From the sequence record PZ445444.1: a DNA stretch of 64,000 nt; one strand, 5' to 3'. The notes under the pieces are model-generated. The model had not been told where the DNA came from and searched no databases. It worked only from the letters and a program-made list of their open reading frames with translations. The DNA is from a phage. Within the stretch, counting starts at the first letter, position 1. Every line of letters begins with the position of its first letter. Position numbers and translations under genes: made by a program. Shown here piece by piece: positions 21,612 through 61,555 of this stretch.

Positions 21612-21687
21612 TCGGTCCCCTGTCTTGTTAAGATGAAGGTATTATTTCACACAGGGTTGGCGTTGTCAACACCTGTGTGCAAGAAAA

Positions 21688-22083
21688 TTACTGAAACAGT
21701 GCGGATAAATTACCTTCTGGTGGGAACTTATCTGCCAAAAACGGTGTTAGCACAGTAGCCTTCTGAAGATCTGGGGTCCACTCGTTGTTCAGAACATCCC
21801 AGTAGTACGCAATGTTGCTGTGTGGGTGCCGCATTACGAACTTTTTCCCTTCGTAGTCGTCTGAAACCTCTACAGAAGAAATAACAACAGAATCTTCAAG
21901 GGTTTCCTCGTAGAAAGATCCACCTTCAAATTTCCAACGAGATGCAAGAGCTCCTGCCTTGAACGCTGCAGATAACGGACTGTCGGCAAGAACATACATT
22001 TCTTGCACTCTGTCGCTGCGATCTTTGCTTCTTACATTGTATACAGTATCTGAGCTATACTCAACACGGTATAGGCTTACCAT
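21688..22083 (-). CDS. hypothetical protein, paralogue of 23890-24288
   Basis: 131 aa; shares a conserved ...HP.S....YW......WTP....AT.L... pattern with the 132-aa ORF at 23890. Confidence 0.6.
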   Translation of the reverse strand: MVSLYRVEYSSDTVYNVRSKDRSDRVQEMYVLADSPLSAAFKAGALASRWKFEGGSFYEETLEDSVVISSVEVSDDYEGKKFVMRHPHSNIAYYWDVLNNEWTPDLQKATVLTPFLADKFPPEGNLSALFQ

Positions 22084-22442
22084 TACCGCACCTCCTCAAT
22101 AACTTCCACATCTGAACCTACCACAAATGCAAAAGGACAGGTTTCATGAAAGATATCCGGATCGCCGCCAAGCTTGCTAACAATTTCTCCACCACTAATA
22201 AACACAAGCTCACCGATATTCATCAGATTGCTGAAATAGTACCCATAATGATTAAAGAATGCAGCAGGGTCAGGTAGACTAGTAGCCTCAAGCACTACAT
22301 CAGTTGAGGTTACTTTCTTATCATAACCTCTCGCCTTTTGAGATGCAAGATCTGCAGAATCCTCAGGCGACCGGAGATGCACAGGAATTGTTTCACCAAT
22401 AAAGCGTACTTTCATATTATCACCCAACAACCATAGCTTCAA
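22083..22442 (-). CDS. hypothetical protein, distant member of the MKVK small-protein family
   Basis: 119 aa; internal MKVRFIGE... and C-terminal VGSDVEVIEE resemble ORFs 24301, 24545, 28186. Confidence 0.55.
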   Translation of the reverse strand: MKLWLLGDNMKVRFIGETIPVHLRSPEDSADLASQKARGYDKKVTSTDVVLEATSLPDPAAFFNHYGYYFSNLMNIGELVFISGGEIVSKLGGDPDIFHETCPFAFVVGSDVEVIEEVR

Positions 22443-22683
22443 AAGGGGTCATGAACGAATAAACGGCATCATCATCTGCTTCAGGGAATGCTCCCAAAGA
22501 CTTCATGTCTGAGCCCTTGACAAATACAAGGTTTTGATCAAAAGCTTCTTGAGGATCAATCCGATACATATTTCGTAGAATATCGCCTACCTCCTCATCA
22601 AGAGGTGAGTATGCTGTGCACGTTTTTCCGATCAAGCTTTGAGAATCAGGGTATCCACCTGAAGTTTTAAAATAAACAATCAT
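22420..22683 (-). CDS. hypothetical protein
   Basis: 87-aa ORF. Confidence 0.55.
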   Translation of the reverse strand: MIVYFKTSGGYPDSQSLIGKTCTAYSPLDEEVGDILRNMYRIDPQEAFDQNLVFVKGSDMKSLGAFPEADDDAVYSFMTPFEAMVVG

Positions 22684-22774: not shown

Positions 22775-23044
22775 TTATTCCTCTACAATCTCATACACAT
22801 CCGGAGTTACAATCAACTCTTCTCCGTTACCCGGTGCAACAAACACCACCATGCCTTCAGGTGTGTGCTTTTTAGCCATCTCGATAACATCTTCTCGCAG
22901 AGCTGGCTCCATCAGATCAAAACCTTCACCCAGGGCATCACGAACCACCTTCATATAGTCAACTGGTTGTGCTTCGACAATCATACCTTCAACCAGTCCA
23001 CAGTTTTTGTCTGCCAGCTCAGTTTTGAATAATTTAATTTTCAT
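22775..23044 (-). CDS. hypothetical acidic protein
   Basis: 89-aa ORF. Confidence 0.6.
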   Translation of the reverse strand: MKIKLFKTELADKNCGLVEGMIVEAQPVDYMKVVRDALGEGFDLMEPALREDVIEMAKKHTPEGMVVFVAPGNGEELIVTPDVYEIVEE

Positions 23045-23070: not shown

Positions 23071-23172
23071 TTAATAGCCGTAACCTAACACATTAACTAC
23101 AACTGCGATTGCAAACATAATTTCAAAGCATGCAATCTCTACATTTGGGACTAATTTCTTGATCACACCCAT
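23071..23172 (-). CDS. small membrane peptide
   Basis: 33-aa ORF with GAGGTG RBS; hydrophobic. Confidence 0.35.
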   Translation of the reverse strand: MGVIKKLVPNVEIACFEIMFAIAVVVNVLGYGY

Positions 23173-23181
23173 TGTAGCACC

Positions 23182-23499
23182 TCATTCTCTAAAGTCAATC
23201 TTTACTTTGCCTTTCCCCTTACCTTTCTTTCCACCGCATTTAGCCAGTTGACGTGCTGCAACATCTACCATACGGTCAGTTGCCTCGTAAGCATCACTGC
23301 CTTTAGCTTTGGCAATAACTTCTTTTCCAGAATTGTCAAAAATGAACGCCATAACTTCCTGGTGATCATTTTCAACTTTTACACTCACACGTGCATAGTT
23401 GGCAGAGGGATGCAAACGCTCCAGCTTAGACATTTTGTGGGAAATGAAAGACACCATACCTTCAGTGATTTCTACGTTGCCAGTGATTTCAATTTGCAT
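23182..23499 (-). CDS. hpf: ribosome hibernation-promoting factor / RaiA-family homologue
   Basis: 105 aa; N-terminus MQIEITGNVEITEGM...KLE...VSVKVE...AKAKGSDAYEATD...ARQLAK aligns along its length with my recollection of E. coli HPF (MQLNITGNNVEITEAL...KLEQY...VVLKVE...ASAEGQDMYAAIDGLIDKLARQLTK); lysine/glycine-rich tail. Confidence 0.75.
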   Translation of the reverse strand: MQIEITGNVEITEGMVSFISHKMSKLERLHPSANYARVSVKVENDHQEVMAFIFDNSGKEVIAKAKGSDAYEATDRMVDVAARQLAKCGGKKGKGKGKVKIDFRE

Positions 23500-23581
23500 A
23501 ACGTGTTCCTTTTAAAGAAGAGGGAACCAAACCCTCTTTGAAAACAATGATACTAAATCTGAAGCGTTGTGTCAACAGTTT

Positions 23582-23889: not shown

Positions 23890-24288
23890 TCAGTTTAGCT
23901 TTTCTTCAACAACCCCATAGCTCGGGACAGAGTCAAGAGCTTTCTGGTTTAAAAGTGGTGTAGCAGAATCTGCAAACGGTGTCCAAGTTTTTGTTCTGGC
24001 GTTCCAGTAATGCTTCACTCTGGAATCTGGATGCACTATAACAAAAACTTTTTCACTTGTCAACACATTAATTTCTTCCACACCCCTGCTGATAATTTCT
24101 CCGTCATATCCCCCGGTCTGGTATCCTTCGTACCAGGTTCTTGCATAGGCATAGCCAGCCTGCCAGCATGCAGCCTCCTCCGAGGTGGAGACTACGTAGA
24201 AGTCTTTCTCAAATTCTGGGATACGCCCTTGCTTTACGCTCCAAGCTCCGCGAATTTTCATTGTAACTTTGAATAGTTTATTTTTCAC
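23890..24288 (-). CDS. hypothetical protein, paralogue of 21688-22083
   Basis: 132-aa ORF. Confidence 0.6.
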   Translation of the reverse strand: MKNKLFKVTMKIRGAWSVKQGRIPEFEKDFYVVSTSEEAACWQAGYAYARTWYEGYQTGGYDGEIISRGVEEINVLTSEKVFVIVHPDSRVKHYWNARTKTWTPFADSATPLLNQKALDSVPSYGVVEEKLN

Positions 24289-24300
24289 AACGGTTACCCA

Positions 24301-24555
24301 TCACAGTTCTACAATATCTGCATCTGACCCTGCCCCAAAGGCATAATAGGACTCTTCCCCGAAATAATATTCCGGTGCACCAGCAGCGATCAGGTCTGAT
24401 CCCAAAATGAATACCACGTTGTGGCCTACATAGCTGTGATTTTGCCGCACAGGATCATCCCACGGCAACCCTTCGAAGTATACCGCAGGGACGACCTTTC
24501 CTTTCAGGAAGGATTGCCCCAAGTAGACGTTAGAATCAAGAATTTTAACCTTCAT
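24301..24555 (-). CDS. hypothetical protein, MKVK small-protein family
   Basis: 84 aa, MKVKILDSNVYLGQ...GKVV...DLIAAGA. Confidence 0.6.
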   Translation of the reverse strand: MKVKILDSNVYLGQSFLKGKVVPAVYFEGLPWDDPVRQNHSYVGHNVVFILGSDLIAAGAPEYYFGEESYYAFGAGSDADIVEL

Positions 24556-24772
24556 GATCGTCCTCCACTATCTCTACATCCTCACCTAGGGCAAAGTTGT
24601 AGGTCCACTGACTGTCAAAGCATTCCTGAGATGCACCAGCGGCAATAAGATCTGCCCCTTTTATTTTTAAAAGGTCAGGGTAATCTTCGTTAGGGACAGC
24701 AGTAAACACTTTCCCTACTAAAGGCTCCTGACCAATATAGAAGCTTGAATCTAAAACTTTAACTTTCATCAA
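24545..24772 (-). CDS. hypothetical protein, MKVK small-protein family
   Basis: 75 aa, MMKVKVLDSSFYIGQ...GKVF...DLIAAGA. Confidence 0.6.
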   Translation of the reverse strand: MMKVKVLDSSFYIGQEPLVGKVFTAVPNEDYPDLLKIKGADLIAAGASQECFDSQWTYNFALGEDVEIVEDDHEG

Positions 24773-25842: not shown

Positions 25843-26126
25843 TTTCTAGTCCCCTTCTTAGATTTTTGTGTAGAAACGCTTTCTGCAATACGAGACAAAC
25901 GTTCTTCTGAAGCCTTGCCTATTCCAGGTTTTTTGAGTGGGTTATCTTTATGACCACAATCCAATTGGATATTGGATACCTCTCCAACCTTGTAAGTCAA
26001 TTCTAGCAAAAGGTTGTCGTCCTTGTCAAATGTTCTTACGATAAATTTTTTATCGTTCTCCTGAACTTCGTATCGGGTACCCGCAGTATACAGCATGGTG
26101 CCATCCGCATAGGATATCCAGATCAT
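25839..26126 (-). CDS. hypothetical protein
   Basis: 95-aa ORF. Confidence 0.55.
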   Translation of the reverse strand: MIWISYADGTMLYTAGTRYEVQENDKKFIVRTFDKDDNLLLELTYKVGEVSNIQLDCGHKDNPLKKPGIGKASEERLSRIAESVSTQKSKKGTRK

Positions 26127-60742: not shown

Positions 60743-60817
60743 GCCCTGTTAGCTTAGTGGATAAAGCAGCGGCCTTCTAAGCCGTTGACACTGGTTCGAG
60801 TCCAGTACGGGGTGCCA
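60743..60817 (+). tRNA. tRNA-Arg (anticodon TCT)
   Basis: hand-folded cloverleaf: 7-bp acceptor GCCCTGT/ACGGGGT, D stem GCTT/AAGC, anticodon loop CTTCTAA, T loop TTCGAGT, encoded CCA. Confidence 0.75.
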
Positions 60818-60821
60818 AATT

Positions 60822-60908
60822 GGGGAGTTATCCCGTAGAGGTAGCGGTGTAGACTGTAAATCTATTGTCATTGCGACTCGGGTGGTTCGACTCCACCACT
60901 CCCCACCA
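60822..60908 (+). tRNA. tRNA-Tyr (anticodon GTA), long variable arm
   Basis: acceptor GGGGAGT/ACTCCCC, anticodon stem-loop GTAGA-CTGTAAA-TCTAT, T arm GGTGG-TTCGACT-CCACC, CCA. Confidence 0.7.
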
Positions 60909-61022
60909 AATTTATATTTTTAGATGCATAAATAATACAGATAATGGCATTGATATTTATCGTCGTTTATACTAGTCACTAACTGCTCGAAAATCAGTGT
61001 CATTATCAGTATAATTTATAAA

Positions 61023-61113
61023 GGAGGGTAGGGAGCAATGGTGCTCAAGCGGTCTTGAAAACCGTCCCGTTGAGGATGACTCGATGATGGTTCGATTCCA
61101 TTACTCTCCGCCA
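61023..61113 (+). tRNA. tRNA-Ser (anticodon TGA), type II
   Basis: acceptor GGAGGGT/ACTCTCC, anticodon loop CTTGAAA, long variable arm, T loop TTCGATT, CCA. Confidence 0.6.
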
Positions 61114-61211
61114 CATTGTTGACCTTGTAATTAAGCGAAAGCCGGAAGCAGAACCGGATTATCAAATGTTACAGTCGTCATCGCCGACTAGCAACATGGT
61201 CAACATACTGA

Positions 61212-61310
61212 GCTAGGTAAGCCCTTTGGCAAGGGCGAGGATTTTTAATCCTGAAAATAGACGAGGTAGTCGTTGAATACATAGGTGGTTCGATTCCATC
61301 ACCTAGCACC
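61212..61310 (+). tRNA. tRNA-like gene, atypical (99 nt; anticodon loop TTTTTAA suggests TTT/Lys; ~28-nt variable region)
   Basis: acceptor GCTAGGT/ACCTAGC, D arm GCCC-TTTGGCAA-GGGC, 4-bp anticodon stem AGGA/TCCT, T arm GGTGG-TTCGATT-CCATC; CCA not fully encoded. Confidence 0.4.
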
Positions 61311-61315
61311 TTTTT

Positions 61316-61391
61316 GCTGATGTAGCACAATCGGTAGTGCAATTGATTTGTAATCAATAGGTTGTAGGTTCAAGTCCTGCCATCAGCACCA
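61316..61391 (+). tRNA. tRNA-Thr (anticodon TGT)
   Basis: acceptor GCTGATG/CATCAGC, D stem GCAC/GTGC, anticodon arm ATTGA-TTTGTAA-TCAAT, T loop TTCAAGT, CCA. Confidence 0.8.
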
Positions 61392-61392
61392 A

Positions 61393-61467
61393 GGCCCTGT
61401 AGCTGGAAGGTTCAAGCAAGCGACTCATAATCGCCAGACGGTGGTTCAATTCCACCCAGGGCCACCA
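61393..61467 (+). tRNA. tRNA-Met (anticodon CAT; initiator, elongator or Ile-lysidine type not resolved)
   Basis: acceptor GGCCCTG/CAGGGCC, anticodon loop CTCATAA, T arm GGTGG-TTCAATT-CCACC, CCA. Confidence 0.75.
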
Positions 61468-61478
61468 AATAATAAATA

Positions 61479-61555
61479 CTCCGCGTAGCTCAGCTTGGTA
61501 GAGCGCCTGATTTGGGATCAGGAGGTCGAGTGTTCGAATCACTCCGTGGAGACCA
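61479..61555 (+). tRNA. tRNA-Pro (anticodon TGG)
   Basis: acceptor CTCCGCG/CGTGGAG, D arm TAGCTCAGCTTGGTAGAGC, anticodon arm CCTGA-TTTGGGA-TCAGG, T arm GAGTG-TTCGAAT-CACTC, CCA. Confidence 0.8.

What the first reader, a model, noticed from the sequence alone, without database searches (positions are those of the whole stretch)
23182..23499. Phage-encoded ribosome hibernation-promoting factor (HPF/RaiA) homologue
The 105-aa ORF aligns over its full length with bacterial HPF as I recall it and adds a Lys/Gly-rich tail. A phage copy of a factor that silences or dimerises ribosomes suggests manipulation of host translation, for example shutting down host ribosomes or countering stress-induced translational shutdown. 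It sits among unknown small acidic proteins and is followed by a 33-aa membrane peptide.
Basis: partly seen in the sequence, partly recalled or inferred. Interest (0 to 1): 0.75.

Follow-up and report, generated by a model that had tools for sequence, protein, structure and literature searches.

The report
Known phage ribosome-hibernation factor homologue
This gene of an rV5-like E. coli phage does encode a diverged relative of the bacterial protein that parks idle ribosomes, but it has been annotated since the rV5 genome was deposited and was tested in 2019, when it did not co-purify with ribosomes, so the gene is not new and only its role in infection remains open.

Summary
Window 23182-23499 (minus strand) is a 105-aa ORF. 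[quoted passage not shown] Residues 89-105 form a disordered Lys/Gly-rich tail.

The window is a Vequintavirus (rV5-like) genome, and the gene is rV5 ORF144. GenBank calls it 'sigma 54 modulation factor', 'hpf' or 'RaiA' in more than 100 genomes. Mizuno et al. 2019 (Nat Commun 10:752) described it and expressed it in E. coli. They found no protein in salt-washed 70S/100S ribosomes and no effect on 100S.

What I add:
- Purifying selection is strong (dN/dS 0.02-0.13).
- A 64%-identical orthologue sits at the syntenic position in a divergent sister phage lineage.
- A near-consensus sigma-70 promoter lies upstream.
- Several contact residues invariant in enterobacterial HPFs are lost (K80, H62, K89, H95, and R33 and H55), while K26, D75, R83 and K87 are kept.

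Most likely it is a functional, early-expressed, weakly binding HPF-type ribosome ligand that alters host hibernation. A repurposed HPF fold is the main rival. Novelty: already known.

The parts
23182..23499 (-). CDS of the phage HPF homologue (105 aa plus TGA stop). It corresponds to rV5 ORF144 (ABI79209) and to bas53_0151 in phage JohannBauhin.
   Evidence: ORF listing; PF02482 and TIGR00741 above their cutoffs; annotated as 'ribosome hibernation factor' or 'sigma 54 modulation factor' in the closest records.
23236..23499 (-). [quoted passage not shown]
   Evidence: AlphaFold2 core pLDDT is 81-96 by ten-residue block, mostly above 90, with elements E2-7, H13-29, E33-43, E46-55, E60-67 and H70-89. 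Foldseek gives TM 0.79/0.87 and rmsd 1.1 A to E. coli HPF on the hibernating ribosome, 6h4n_x.
23185..23235 (-). Residues 89-105: the Lys/Gly-rich basic tail GGKKGKGKGKVKIDFRE. It replaces the KDKLKQH end of enterobacterial HPF.
   Evidence: pLDDT below 50 for residues 91-105. Net charge +5. None of 18 cellular HPF-family proteins inspected has a Lys/Gly-repeat tail. Length varies through frameshifts in the purine-rich repeat in phages APCEc02 and Murica.
23507..23511 (-). Shine-Dalgarno sequence AAGGA, 7 nt upstream of the ATG.
   Evidence: Read directly from the sequence. Conserved in all orthologous upstream regions.
23547..23575 (-). Sigma-70-type promoter TTGACA-17 nt-TATCAT (11 of 12 consensus positions) in the 82-bp gap upstream of the gene.
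   Evidence: Promoter scan. The same element is annotated as 'Sigma70-type promoter; P144' in the rV5 record. The TTGACA hexamer is identical and the -10 hexamer is TATCAT or TATTAT in ten Vequintavirus loci, and TTGACA is also present in the sister lineage.
23518..23538 (-). Weak 7-bp hairpin (AAGAGGG-TTTGGTT-CCCTCTT) between the promoter and the Shine-Dalgarno sequence. It could be a 5'-end stem-loop or a terminator for read-through from upstream. Its significance is doubtful.
   Evidence: Minimum free energy -9.9 kcal/mol but z-score only -0.36 against shuffles. Partly conserved, with one compensatory pair among six sequences. Absent from the sister lineage.
23071..23172 (-). 33-aa hydrophobic ORF immediately downstream, probably co-transcribed and translationally coupled. 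No functional link to HPF is shown.
   Evidence: GAGGTG lies 7 nt upstream of its ATG and overlaps the HPF stop codon. It matches phrog_15151 at E=4e-26. Maximum Kyte-Doolittle score 2.34. No ORF is called in the 84-bp gap at this position in the sister lineage.

Best explanation
This is a genuine, selectively maintained, diverged short-type HPF. A Vequintavirus ancestor captured it from a gammaproteobacterial host. It is transcribed from its own sigma-70 promoter by host RNA polymerase, so presumably early in infection.

The most likely mechanism is that the conserved core still docks in the 30S decoding channel of vacant ribosomes, using K25 (E. coli K26), D75, R83, K87 and the Y71/D69/D79 scaffold. 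Binding would be weaker and salt-labile because other contacts are gone:
- K80 is V.
- H62 is I.
- H55 is F.
- T53 is F.
- R33 is S.
- K89, K93 and H95 are replaced by a flexible Gly/Lys tail.

E. coli HPF ends with His95 stacked on G693 in the E-site mRNA path. A 17-residue polybasic tail leaving the same point would run along the mRNA path toward the platform, which is the direction the longer RaiA/YfiA tail takes when it interferes with RMF.

The expected result is a readily displaced 'placeholder' on idle 70S ribosomes. It would compete with host HPF, RaiA and RMF, so ribosomes stay monomeric, protected and quick to re-enter translation of phage mRNAs when the host is starved or stressed.

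Shown here: homology, predicted fold, purifying selection, the promoter motif, and the pattern of kept and lost contact residues.
Inferred: ribosome binding, the path of the tail, competition with host factors, and the timing of expression.

The confidence of 0.5 applies to the mechanism. Membership of the HPF/RaiA superfamily is close to certain.
For: Family membership:
- PF02482 and TIGR00741 are both above their curated cutoffs.
- The protein is 43% identical to E. coli HPF and 25% identical to YfiA.
- The predicted fold superposes on ribosome-bound E. coli HPF at rmsd 1.1 A.

The gene is functional:
- dN/dS is 0.02-0.13 among eight Vequintavirus alleles. For example, the window against L008 has 28 synonymous and 6 non-synonymous differences.
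- The gene is present in 118 phage records.
- A 64%-identical orthologue sits at the syntenic position of a divergent sister lineage. Synonymous sites there are saturated while core pN is only 0.22.

Expression signals:
- An 11-of-12 sigma-70 promoter and a Shine-Dalgarno sequence lie upstream.
- The same promoter is annotated as P144 in the rV5 record, and its -35 hexamer is conserved in the sister lineage.

Contacts kept:
- R83 (contacts m4C1402), K87, K91, K26, D75 and E60 are retained.
- Both phage lineages carry a basic tail (+5 and +3) and a pI of 9.0-9.4, against 6.5 for E. coli HPF.

Literature:
- The RaiA/YfiA C-terminal tail heads toward the RMF site and antagonises RMF.
- HPF His95 mimics E-site mRNA.
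- Hibernation factors protect ribosomes from RNases (PMC7913689, listed).
- Mizuno et al. themselves proposed competition with the cellular homologues.
Against: - The only experiment is negative. When rV5 HPF was expressed in E. coli NM522, mass spectrometry found it in crude extract but not in 70S/100S fractions purified under high-salt conditions, and 100S levels did not change.
- Of 62 columns that are at least 90% conserved in 43 Enterobacterales HPFs, only 32 are kept in the window protein and 26 in both phage lineages.
- K80 is one of the four basic residues shared by HPF and YfiA that contact rRNA. It is lost in both phage lineages, as V and as T.
- The protein scores far below the PRK10470 equivalog cutoff (55.8 against 125 bits).
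- The last ten or so tail residues differ in several isolates because of frameshifts, so at least the distal tail is not strictly required.
- I found no transcript or proteome data for the timing of expression.
Confidence: 0.5

Rival explanations
1. The HPF fold has been repurposed. The protein no longer acts on ribosomes and instead binds another host target or a small molecule, as other phage proteins with HPF-like or dsRBD-like folds do. T7 Gp1.2 inhibits the E. coli dGTPase Dgt, and SPO1 Acb4 sequesters cyclic dinucleotides of CBASS.
For: - The protein was not detected in purified ribosomes.
- About half of the positions conserved in enterobacterial HPFs have changed, including the rRNA, uS9 and E-tRNA contacts K80, H62, H55, T53 and R33.
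- Several replacements are shared by both phage lineages (R28, L29, P31, D45, F54, K64, K66), as expected for a new, conserved interface.
Against: - Unlike Gp1.2 and Acb4, this protein keeps clear sequence homology to HPF: 43% identity, with R83, K87, K26, D75 and Y71 retained.
- The Pfam scan up to E=10 returned only PF02482 and a sub-threshold DUF2518 match. The Acb4 family PF13876 was not among the results.
- TM-scores to true HPFs are 0.8-0.9, against 0.43-0.51 to Gp1.2.
- The added polybasic tail suits nucleic-acid binding.
- The negative ribosome experiment used stringent salt washes and a growth phase with few vacant ribosomes.
Confidence: 0.25
2. It is a classical hibernation promoter or host shut-off factor. 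It would cooperate with host RMF to drive 70S ribosomes into inactive 100S dimers, or lock 70S as RaiA does, in order to silence host translation.
For: - The closest relatives are enterobacterial short HPFs, whose known role is 100S formation together with RMF.
- The fold and part of the basic alpha-2 track are kept.
Against: - Expression in E. coli had no effect on 100S.
- The residues that contact E-site tRNA and G693 in the 100S structure (R33, K93, H95) are absent.
- General ribosome silencing from an early sigma-70 promoter would also block phage translation. This last point is inference.
Confidence: 0.15
3. It is a decaying passenger gene with no function, a recent capture from the host.
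For: - The distal tail is truncated by frameshifts in APCEc02 and Murica.
- Phage inoa has a six-codon N-terminal deletion.
- No phenotype is known.
Against: - dN/dS is 0.02-0.13.
- The gene is retained in 118 records and in a sister lineage where synonymous sites are saturated.
- It has its own conserved promoter and Shine-Dalgarno sequence.
- Identity to any cellular HPF is at most 45%, so the capture is not recent.
Confidence: 0.03

Closest known systems
rV5 ORF144 'sigma 54 modulation factor' / viral HPF (ABI79209), described by Mizuno et al. 2019 (Nat Commun 10:752) and Mathieu et al. 2020
   Same: It is the same gene. It is 99% identical, differing only at residue 104 (R in the window, G in rV5). 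It has the same position, the same promoter (P144) and the same neighbours.
   Different: Nothing of substance. The window allele carries R104, as do AlexBoehm, RudolfGeigy and others that are 100% identical.
E. coli / Enterobacterales short HPF (YhbH; PRK10470; PDB 2RQL, 6H4N)
   Same: - 37-45% identity over residues 1-88.
[quoted passage not shown]
- K26, E60, D69, Y71, D75, D79, R83 and K87 are conserved.
   Different: - Below the equivalog cutoff (55.8 against 125 bits).
- Lacks R17, R33, T53, H55, H62, K80, K89 and H95.
- The C-terminus is a 17-residue Gly/Lys tail instead of KDKLKQH.
- pI 9.0 against 6.5.
- Phage context rather than the rpoN-hpf-ptsN operon.
- Not recovered in salt-washed ribosomes.
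RaiA / YfiA (protein Y; PRK10324; PDB 4V8I)
   Same: - Same fold and same Pfam family.
- Like RaiA it is longer than HPF, through a flexible C-terminal extension that could reach toward the RMF site.
   Different: - Only 25% identity, and 17.6 bits against a cutoff of 158.
- The RaiA tail ends in an acidic stretch (the sequence I used is from memory), whereas the phage tail is polybasic.
- The GenBank label 'RaiA' on many phage records is a family-level name, not evidence of orthology.
HPF-like proteins of jumbo phages (Cronobacter phage GAP32 K4F6Q6; Escherichia phage PBECO4 L7TII8; phrog_8990)
   Same: They are phage-encoded S30AE-fold proteins.
   Different: - Only 19-22% identical to the window protein.
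- They belong to a separate PHROG (phrog_8990 against phrog_12469).
- They are best read as independent acquisitions.
T7 Gp1.2 (Dgt inhibitor) and SPO1 Acb4 (PF13876, cyclic-dinucleotide sponge)
   Same: They are small phage proteins whose closest structural relatives are HPF and YfiA. They show that phages do reuse this fold for other purposes.
   Different: - Neither has detectable sequence homology to HPF.
- The window protein does not match PF13876.
- It aligns with Gp1.2 only at TM 0.43-0.51.

Membership tests
HPF/RaiA (Ribosomal_S30AE, PF02482; TIGR00741) | Sequence match to the family HMM above the curated threshold | tested here: met
   PF02482 scores 48.3 bits against 23.7, E=1.8e-12, covering profile positions 1-83 of 88. 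TIGR00741 scores 45.9 against 40.9.
HPF/RaiA (Ribosomal_S30AE, PF02482; TIGR00741) | [quoted passage not shown] | tested here: met
   The AlphaFold2 model has mean pLDDT 83.7, with the core mostly above 90. The top 35 Foldseek PDB matches are all HPF, RaiA or pY chains, with TM up to 0.82/0.93. This is a prediction, not a solved structure.
HPF/RaiA (Ribosomal_S30AE, PF02482; TIGR00741) | Basic track on helix alpha-2 that contacts 16S rRNA (K80, R83, K87, K91 in E. coli numbering) | tested here: inconclusive
   R83, K87 and K91 are present. K80 is V in the window and T in the sister lineage. R76 may partly compensate in the window protein but is L in the sister lineage.
HPF/RaiA (Ribosomal_S30AE, PF02482; TIGR00741) | Binds the 30S decoding channel of vacant ribosomes | not testable with these tools
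   The only published test was negative for the rV5 protein in salt-washed 70S/100S fractions, with caveats stated by the authors.
Enterobacterial short HPF (NF007780 / PRK10470 equivalog) | Score above the equivalog cutoff | tested here: not met
   55.8 bits against a cutoff of 125.
Enterobacterial short HPF (NF007780 / PRK10470 equivalog) | C-terminal K89/K91/K93/H95 segment and R33, which contact h23 G693 and E-site tRNA in the 100S ribosome | tested here: not met
   R33 is S32, K89 is G, K93 is G, and H95 is absent. The segment is replaced by the tail GGKKGKGKGKVKIDFRE.
Enterobacterial short HPF (NF007780 / PRK10470 equivalog) | Promotes 100S formation together with RMF | not testable with these tools
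   A published profile showed no discernible effect on 100S. No RMF homologue is encoded in the window.
Enterobacterial short HPF (NF007780 / PRK10470 equivalog) | Gene located in the rpoN-hpf-ptsN operon | tested here: not met
   The phage gene lies in an array of small ORFs of unknown function. The Salmonella comparator lies between rpoN and ptsN.
RaiA/YfiA (NF007654 / PRK10324 equivalog) | Score above the equivalog cutoff | tested here: not met
   17.6 bits against a cutoff of 158. The protein is 25% identical to E. coli YfiA.
Acb4 cyclic-dinucleotide sponge (PF13876) | Match to PF13876 | tested here: not met
   The Pfam scan up to E=10 returned only PF02482 and a sub-threshold DUF2518 match.

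The most novel reading that the evidence does not exclude
The Vequintavirus HPF is an 'anti-hibernation' factor. It would be a deliberately weak decoding-site ligand whose polybasic tail occupies the mRNA-exit and RMF region. It would then displace or exclude host HPF, RaiA and RMF, and keep ribosomes monomeric, protected from nucleases and immediately reusable. That would let the phage translate in starved or stationary hosts. A second reading, also not excluded, is that it has left the ribosome altogether for a new target, as T7 Gp1.2 and Acb4 have done with the same fold.
Probability: 0.25. Interest if true: 0.6.

Novelty: already known. Interest (0 to 1): 0.25.

Why it matters
How lytic phages deal with the hibernating ribosomes of non-growing hosts is largely unknown, and non-growth is the usual state of E. 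coli in gut and sewage. A phage-borne hibernation-factor relative under strong purifying selection is a natural entry point. It could be a viral antagonist of hibernation, a ribosome protector, or an example of this fold being reused.

The existence of the gene is not news. What would be new is a mechanism. The residue pattern described here gives concrete, testable hypotheses that the 2019 experiment did not address: the core scaffold and R83/K87 are kept, K80/H62/H55/R33/H95 are lost, and a polybasic tail is gained.

Tried and rejected
1. Later experimental work on phage HPF. Four of the seven full-text searches addressed this. They found only Mizuno 2019, Mathieu 2020 and an unrelated phage that encodes a homologue of the recently described (Balon) family of hibernation factors. 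A 2025 preprint on the evolution of hibernation factors does not mention phages.
2. Intermediates between phage and cellular HPFs. An exhaustive phmmer search of 1.84 billion representatives found only one other close cluster, P0004 at 65% identity. Everything else is at most 45% identical. A 1160-aa hit with eight matching stretches (P0122) is a PPC-repeat protein, so the match is spurious.
3. IMG/VR scan. It returned only two loci, both ordinary rV5-like alleles.
4. A partner in the window. There is no RMF or second HPF/RaiA homologue by tblastn. The ten neighbouring ORFs have no Pfam match and belong only to PHROGs of unknown function.
5. The 89-aa neighbour that some GenBank records label 'sigma 54 modulation factor'. 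It has no HPF similarity, so the label is an annotation slip.
6. The 5'-UTR hairpin as a regulatory element. Its z-score is -0.36, it is only partly conserved, and it is absent from the sister lineage, so I did not pursue it.
7. The promoter-like site at 23198-23171, inside the 3' end of the gene. Its -10 hexamer abuts the ATG of the 33-aa ORF, so a transcript from it would start downstream of that start codon. I judged it a chance match.
8. The Polikanov 2012 paper could not be retrieved under the id I recalled. Statements about the tail come instead.

Full report
**What is in the sequence**

Window 23182-23499 holds a minus-strand ORF of 105 codons plus a TGA stop. It starts with ATG, and AAGGA lies 7 nt upstream.

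The ORF sits in a long, tightly packed minus-strand array of small ORFs. Most of the neighbouring proteins are acidic (pI 4.0-4.7), whereas this protein is basic (pI 9.0).

A 33-aa ORF at 23071-23172 follows directly. A GAGGTG sequence overlaps the HPF stop codon and lies 7 nt before its ATG. Its best 18-residue hydrophobicity window scores 2.34, which fits a single membrane helix.

**Is the resemblance to HPF more than recollection?**

Yes.
- Pfam PF02482 (Ribosomal_S30AE) matches residues 3-88 over profile positions 1-83 of 88, at E=1.8e-12 and 48.3 bits against a gathering cutoff of 23.7.
- TIGR00741 (HPF/YfiA family) scores 45.9 bits against 40.9.
- phmmer against all PDB sequences puts E. 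coli HPF first (2rql, E=5e-12, residues 1-89 on 1-89), followed by other HPF chains.
- BLASTP gives 43% identity to E. coli HPF and 25% to YfiA.
[quoted passage not shown] Residues 91-105 are disordered.
- Foldseek against the PDB returns HPF, RaiA or pY chains for the first 35 matches. These include E. coli HPF on the hibernating ribosome (6h4n_x: TM 0.79/0.87, rmsd 1.1 A, 42% identity).

**Where the window comes from, and whether this is new**

The region is 99.9% identical to Escherichia phage JohannBauhin (BASEL Bas53, Vequintavirus) and 96-99% identical to about 115 other rV5-like phages. Over 24 kb no record is identical; the best is phage naam at 96.9%.

tblastn finds the protein in 118 phage records, all at least 90% identical. 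They call it 'sigma 54 modulation factor', 'hpf', 'ribosome hibernation factor' or 'RaiA'. In JohannBauhin it is bas53_0151, 'ribosome hibernation factor'. In the rV5 record it is ORF144, with a 'Sigma70-type promoter; P144' annotated upstream.

Two papers already cover it.
- Mizuno et al. 2019 (PMC6375957) listed rV5 HPF (ABI79209, 105 aa) among virus-encoded ribosomal proteins and placed it among gammaproteobacterial HPFs. They suggested it might compete with cellular homologues to prevent ribosome dimers.
- The same authors expressed it from pBAD24 in E. coli NM522. Mass spectrometry found its peptides in crude extract but none in 70S/100S ribosomes purified under high-stringency salt conditions, and 100S formation did not change.
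- They named three possible reasons: inadequate growth phase, true loss of binding, or dissociation during the salt washes.
- Mathieu et al. 2020 noted the hpf gene again in five rV5-like gut isolates.

Further searches found no later functional work.

**Evidence added here**

*1. The gene is under strong purifying selection.* Nei-Gojobori comparisons of eight Vequintavirus alleles give dN/dS of 0.02-0.13. For example, the window against L008 has 28 synonymous and 6 non-synonymous differences.

*2. A sister lineage exists.*
- P0004 (103 aa, 64% identical) is encoded on contigs of about 125-137 kb, in the same kind of small-ORF array.
- The surrounding DNA aligns with Vequintaviruses over only about 27% of its length, at 77-83% identity, and the HPF gene is at the syntenic position.
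- Between the two lineages synonymous sites are saturated (pS 0.77). Core pN is 0.22 and tail pN is 0.45.

*3. An exhaustive search finds no intermediates.* In 1.84 billion representatives there is nothing between this phage clade and cellular HPFs. The best cellular hits are at most 45% identical. The capture is therefore old, not recent.

*4. The expression signals are conserved.*
- TTGACA-17 nt-TATCAT (11 of 12 consensus positions) lies at 23575-23547 in the 82-bp gap upstream.
- The TTGACA hexamer is identical and the -10 hexamer is TATCAT or TATTAT in ten Vequintavirus loci. TTGACA is also present in the sister lineage.
- A 7-bp hairpin between the promoter and the Shine-Dalgarno sequence is weak (z = -0.36), only partly conserved, and absent from the sister lineage.

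*5. Ribosome-contact residues are only partly kept.* Structural papers give the contacts of enterobacterial HPF:
- the alpha-2 basic track K80, R83, K87, K89, K91 and K93;
- H95 stacking on G693;
- R33 and K93 on E-site tRNA;
- K26 and Q29 near m3U1498;
- T53 and H62 on m2G966;
- H55 and E60 on the uS9 C-terminus;
- D75.

The phage protein keeps K26 (as K25), E60, D75, R83, K87 and K91, plus the D69/Y71/D79 scaffold. It has V at 80 (T in the sister lineage), I at 62, F at 55, F at 53, S at 33 and G at 89 and 93, and it has no H95.

Of 62 columns that are at least 90% conserved in 43 Enterobacterales HPFs, 32 are kept in the window protein and 26 in both phage lineages. Several replacements are shared by both phage lineages (R28, L29, P31, D45, F54, K64, K66). 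That points to a derived but conserved surface.

*6. The tail is a derived feature of the phage clade.*
- GGKKGKGKGKVKIDFRE (+5) replaces KDKLKQH (+2). The sister lineage has a different but also basic tail (+3).
- None of the 18 cellular HPF-family proteins inspected has a Lys/Gly-repeat tail.
- The purine-rich repeat that encodes it is prone to frameshifts. APCEc02 ends ...GRKKGKGERQSKD (101 aa) and Murica ends ...GKGKAK (99 aa). The proximal KKGKGK is always kept, but the distal part is dispensable or is mis-sequenced.

*7. No partner gene was found.* The window has no RMF or second HPF/RaiA homologue. The ten neighbouring ORFs match only PHROGs of unknown function.

**How it most likely works**

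*Shown.* It is an HPF-family protein by sequence and predicted fold. It is maintained by selection in two phage lineages. It has its own sigma-70-type promoter motif.

*Inferred.* The core still recognises the 30S decoding channel of vacant ribosomes through the retained R83, K87, K26 and D75 contacts. Affinity would be lower because K80, H62, H55, R33 and the K89-H95 segment are gone. That would also explain the loss from salt-washed ribosomes in the 2019 experiment.

E. coli HPF ends with H95 in the E-site mRNA path. A flexible 17-residue polybasic tail leaving from the same point would follow the mRNA path toward the platform. That is the direction taken by the longer RaiA tail, which interferes with RMF.

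The outcome I consider most likely is a displaceable placeholder that competes with host HPF, RaiA and RMF. It would keep idle ribosomes monomeric and protected from nucleases, so they are available for phage mRNAs in stressed hosts. I give this about 0.5.

**Rival explanations**

- clear sequence homology to HPF is retained;
- there is no PF13876 match;
- TM to Gp1.2 is only 0.43-0.51;
- the added tail is of a nucleic-acid-binding type.

*Classical hibernation promoter or shut-off factor (0.15).* This is disfavoured because 100S did not change, the 100S-specific contacts are lost, and global silencing from an early promoter would also hurt the phage.

*Decaying passenger gene (0.03).* This is contradicted by the dN/dS values.

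**Comparison with known families**

The protein is a member of the HPF/RaiA superfamily: the HMM thresholds and the predicted fold are met. It is not an equivalog of enterobacterial HPF (55.8 against 125 bits) or of RaiA (17.6 against 158 bits).

The 'RaiA' label in RefSeq is a family-level name only. 'Sigma 54 modulation factor' is the historical name of the family.

Jumbo-phage HPF-like proteins (GAP32, PBECO4) are only 19-22% identical and belong to a different PHROG, so they are separate acquisitions.

**Verdict**

The gene is already annotated, published and once tested. Its function is unresolved. Interest is low as a discovery (0.25). It would be moderate if the anti-hibernation or repurposing reading were demonstrated.

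Noticed in passing
window 21688-22083 and 23890-24288; window 24301-24555, 24545-24772 and 22420-22683 (all minus strand): The HPF gene is flanked by paralogous small-protein families of unknown function. Two are copies of phrog_7379 (131-132 aa, sharing a YYW...W-TP motif). Two or three belong to phrog_5009 (75-87 aa, acidic, starting MKVK...). This suggests local gene duplication in the small-ORF (presumably early) region.
   Followed up: partly
window 22775-23044 (minus strand); loci L011, L012, L016: The 89-aa acidic ORF two genes downstream is labelled 'sigma 54 modulation factor' in several GenBank records (APCEc02, inoa, A6-1, and as a second copy in nom, naam and others). It has no Pfam or HPF similarity, so the label looks like an off-by-one annotation slip that has spread. 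Conversely, the true HPF gene is labelled 'ATP-dependent protease La type I' in the bov10K2 and SA_NWU records.
   Followed up: yes
phage collection hits, e.g. MG065654, MG065666, MG065655: Between 18 and 25 unannotated records named 'Campylobacter phage' (host given as C. jejuni) are 96-98% identical to E. coli rV5-like phages across this region. This suggests mislabelled or contaminating phages in that submission.
   Followed up: no
window 60743-61555 (plus strand): A cluster of seven tRNA calls: Arg-tct, Tyr-gta, Ser-tga, Thr-tgt, Met-cat, Pro-tgg, and one 99-nt call at 61212-61310 with a four-base 'anticodon' atcc and undetermined identity. The last may be a pseudo-tRNA, an intron-containing tRNA or a frameshift-suppressor-like tRNA.
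   Followed up: no
window 23185-23235; loci L012, L013, L016, L010: Allelic oddities in the HPF gene:
- Frameshifted or truncated tails in APCEc02 (101 aa) and Murica (99 aa), arising in the AAAGGTAAGGGGAAAGGCAAAG repeat.
- Phage inoa lacks six N-terminal codons (GNVEIT), a deletion between EIT repeats.
- V18-type alleles carry an extra Asn (GNNVEIT), as bacterial HPFs do.
- JES2013 starts with GTG.
- The window allele has R104 where most have G104.
   Followed up: partly
L002-L005 (contigs ERR6997038_58, ERZ16268152 scaffold_272 and others): A divergent Vequintavirus-like phage lineage of about 125-137 kb is not represented among the cultured phage records searched. It carries a 64%-identical HPF at the syntenic position. 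No ORF is called in the 84-bp gap where the window has the 33-aa hydrophobic ORF, and the 5'-UTR hairpin is absent.
   Followed up: partly
window 24035-24063, 26000-26029 and 21641-21669 (minus strand): Three more 11-of-12 sigma-70 consensus sites lie on the coding strand of the small-ORF array. Two are inside annotated ORFs and one is intergenic. This fits multiple host-RNA-polymerase promoters along this presumed early region, although the total count of promoter-like sites is not above the shuffled expectation (18 against 14.6 +/- 3.8).
   Followed up: no
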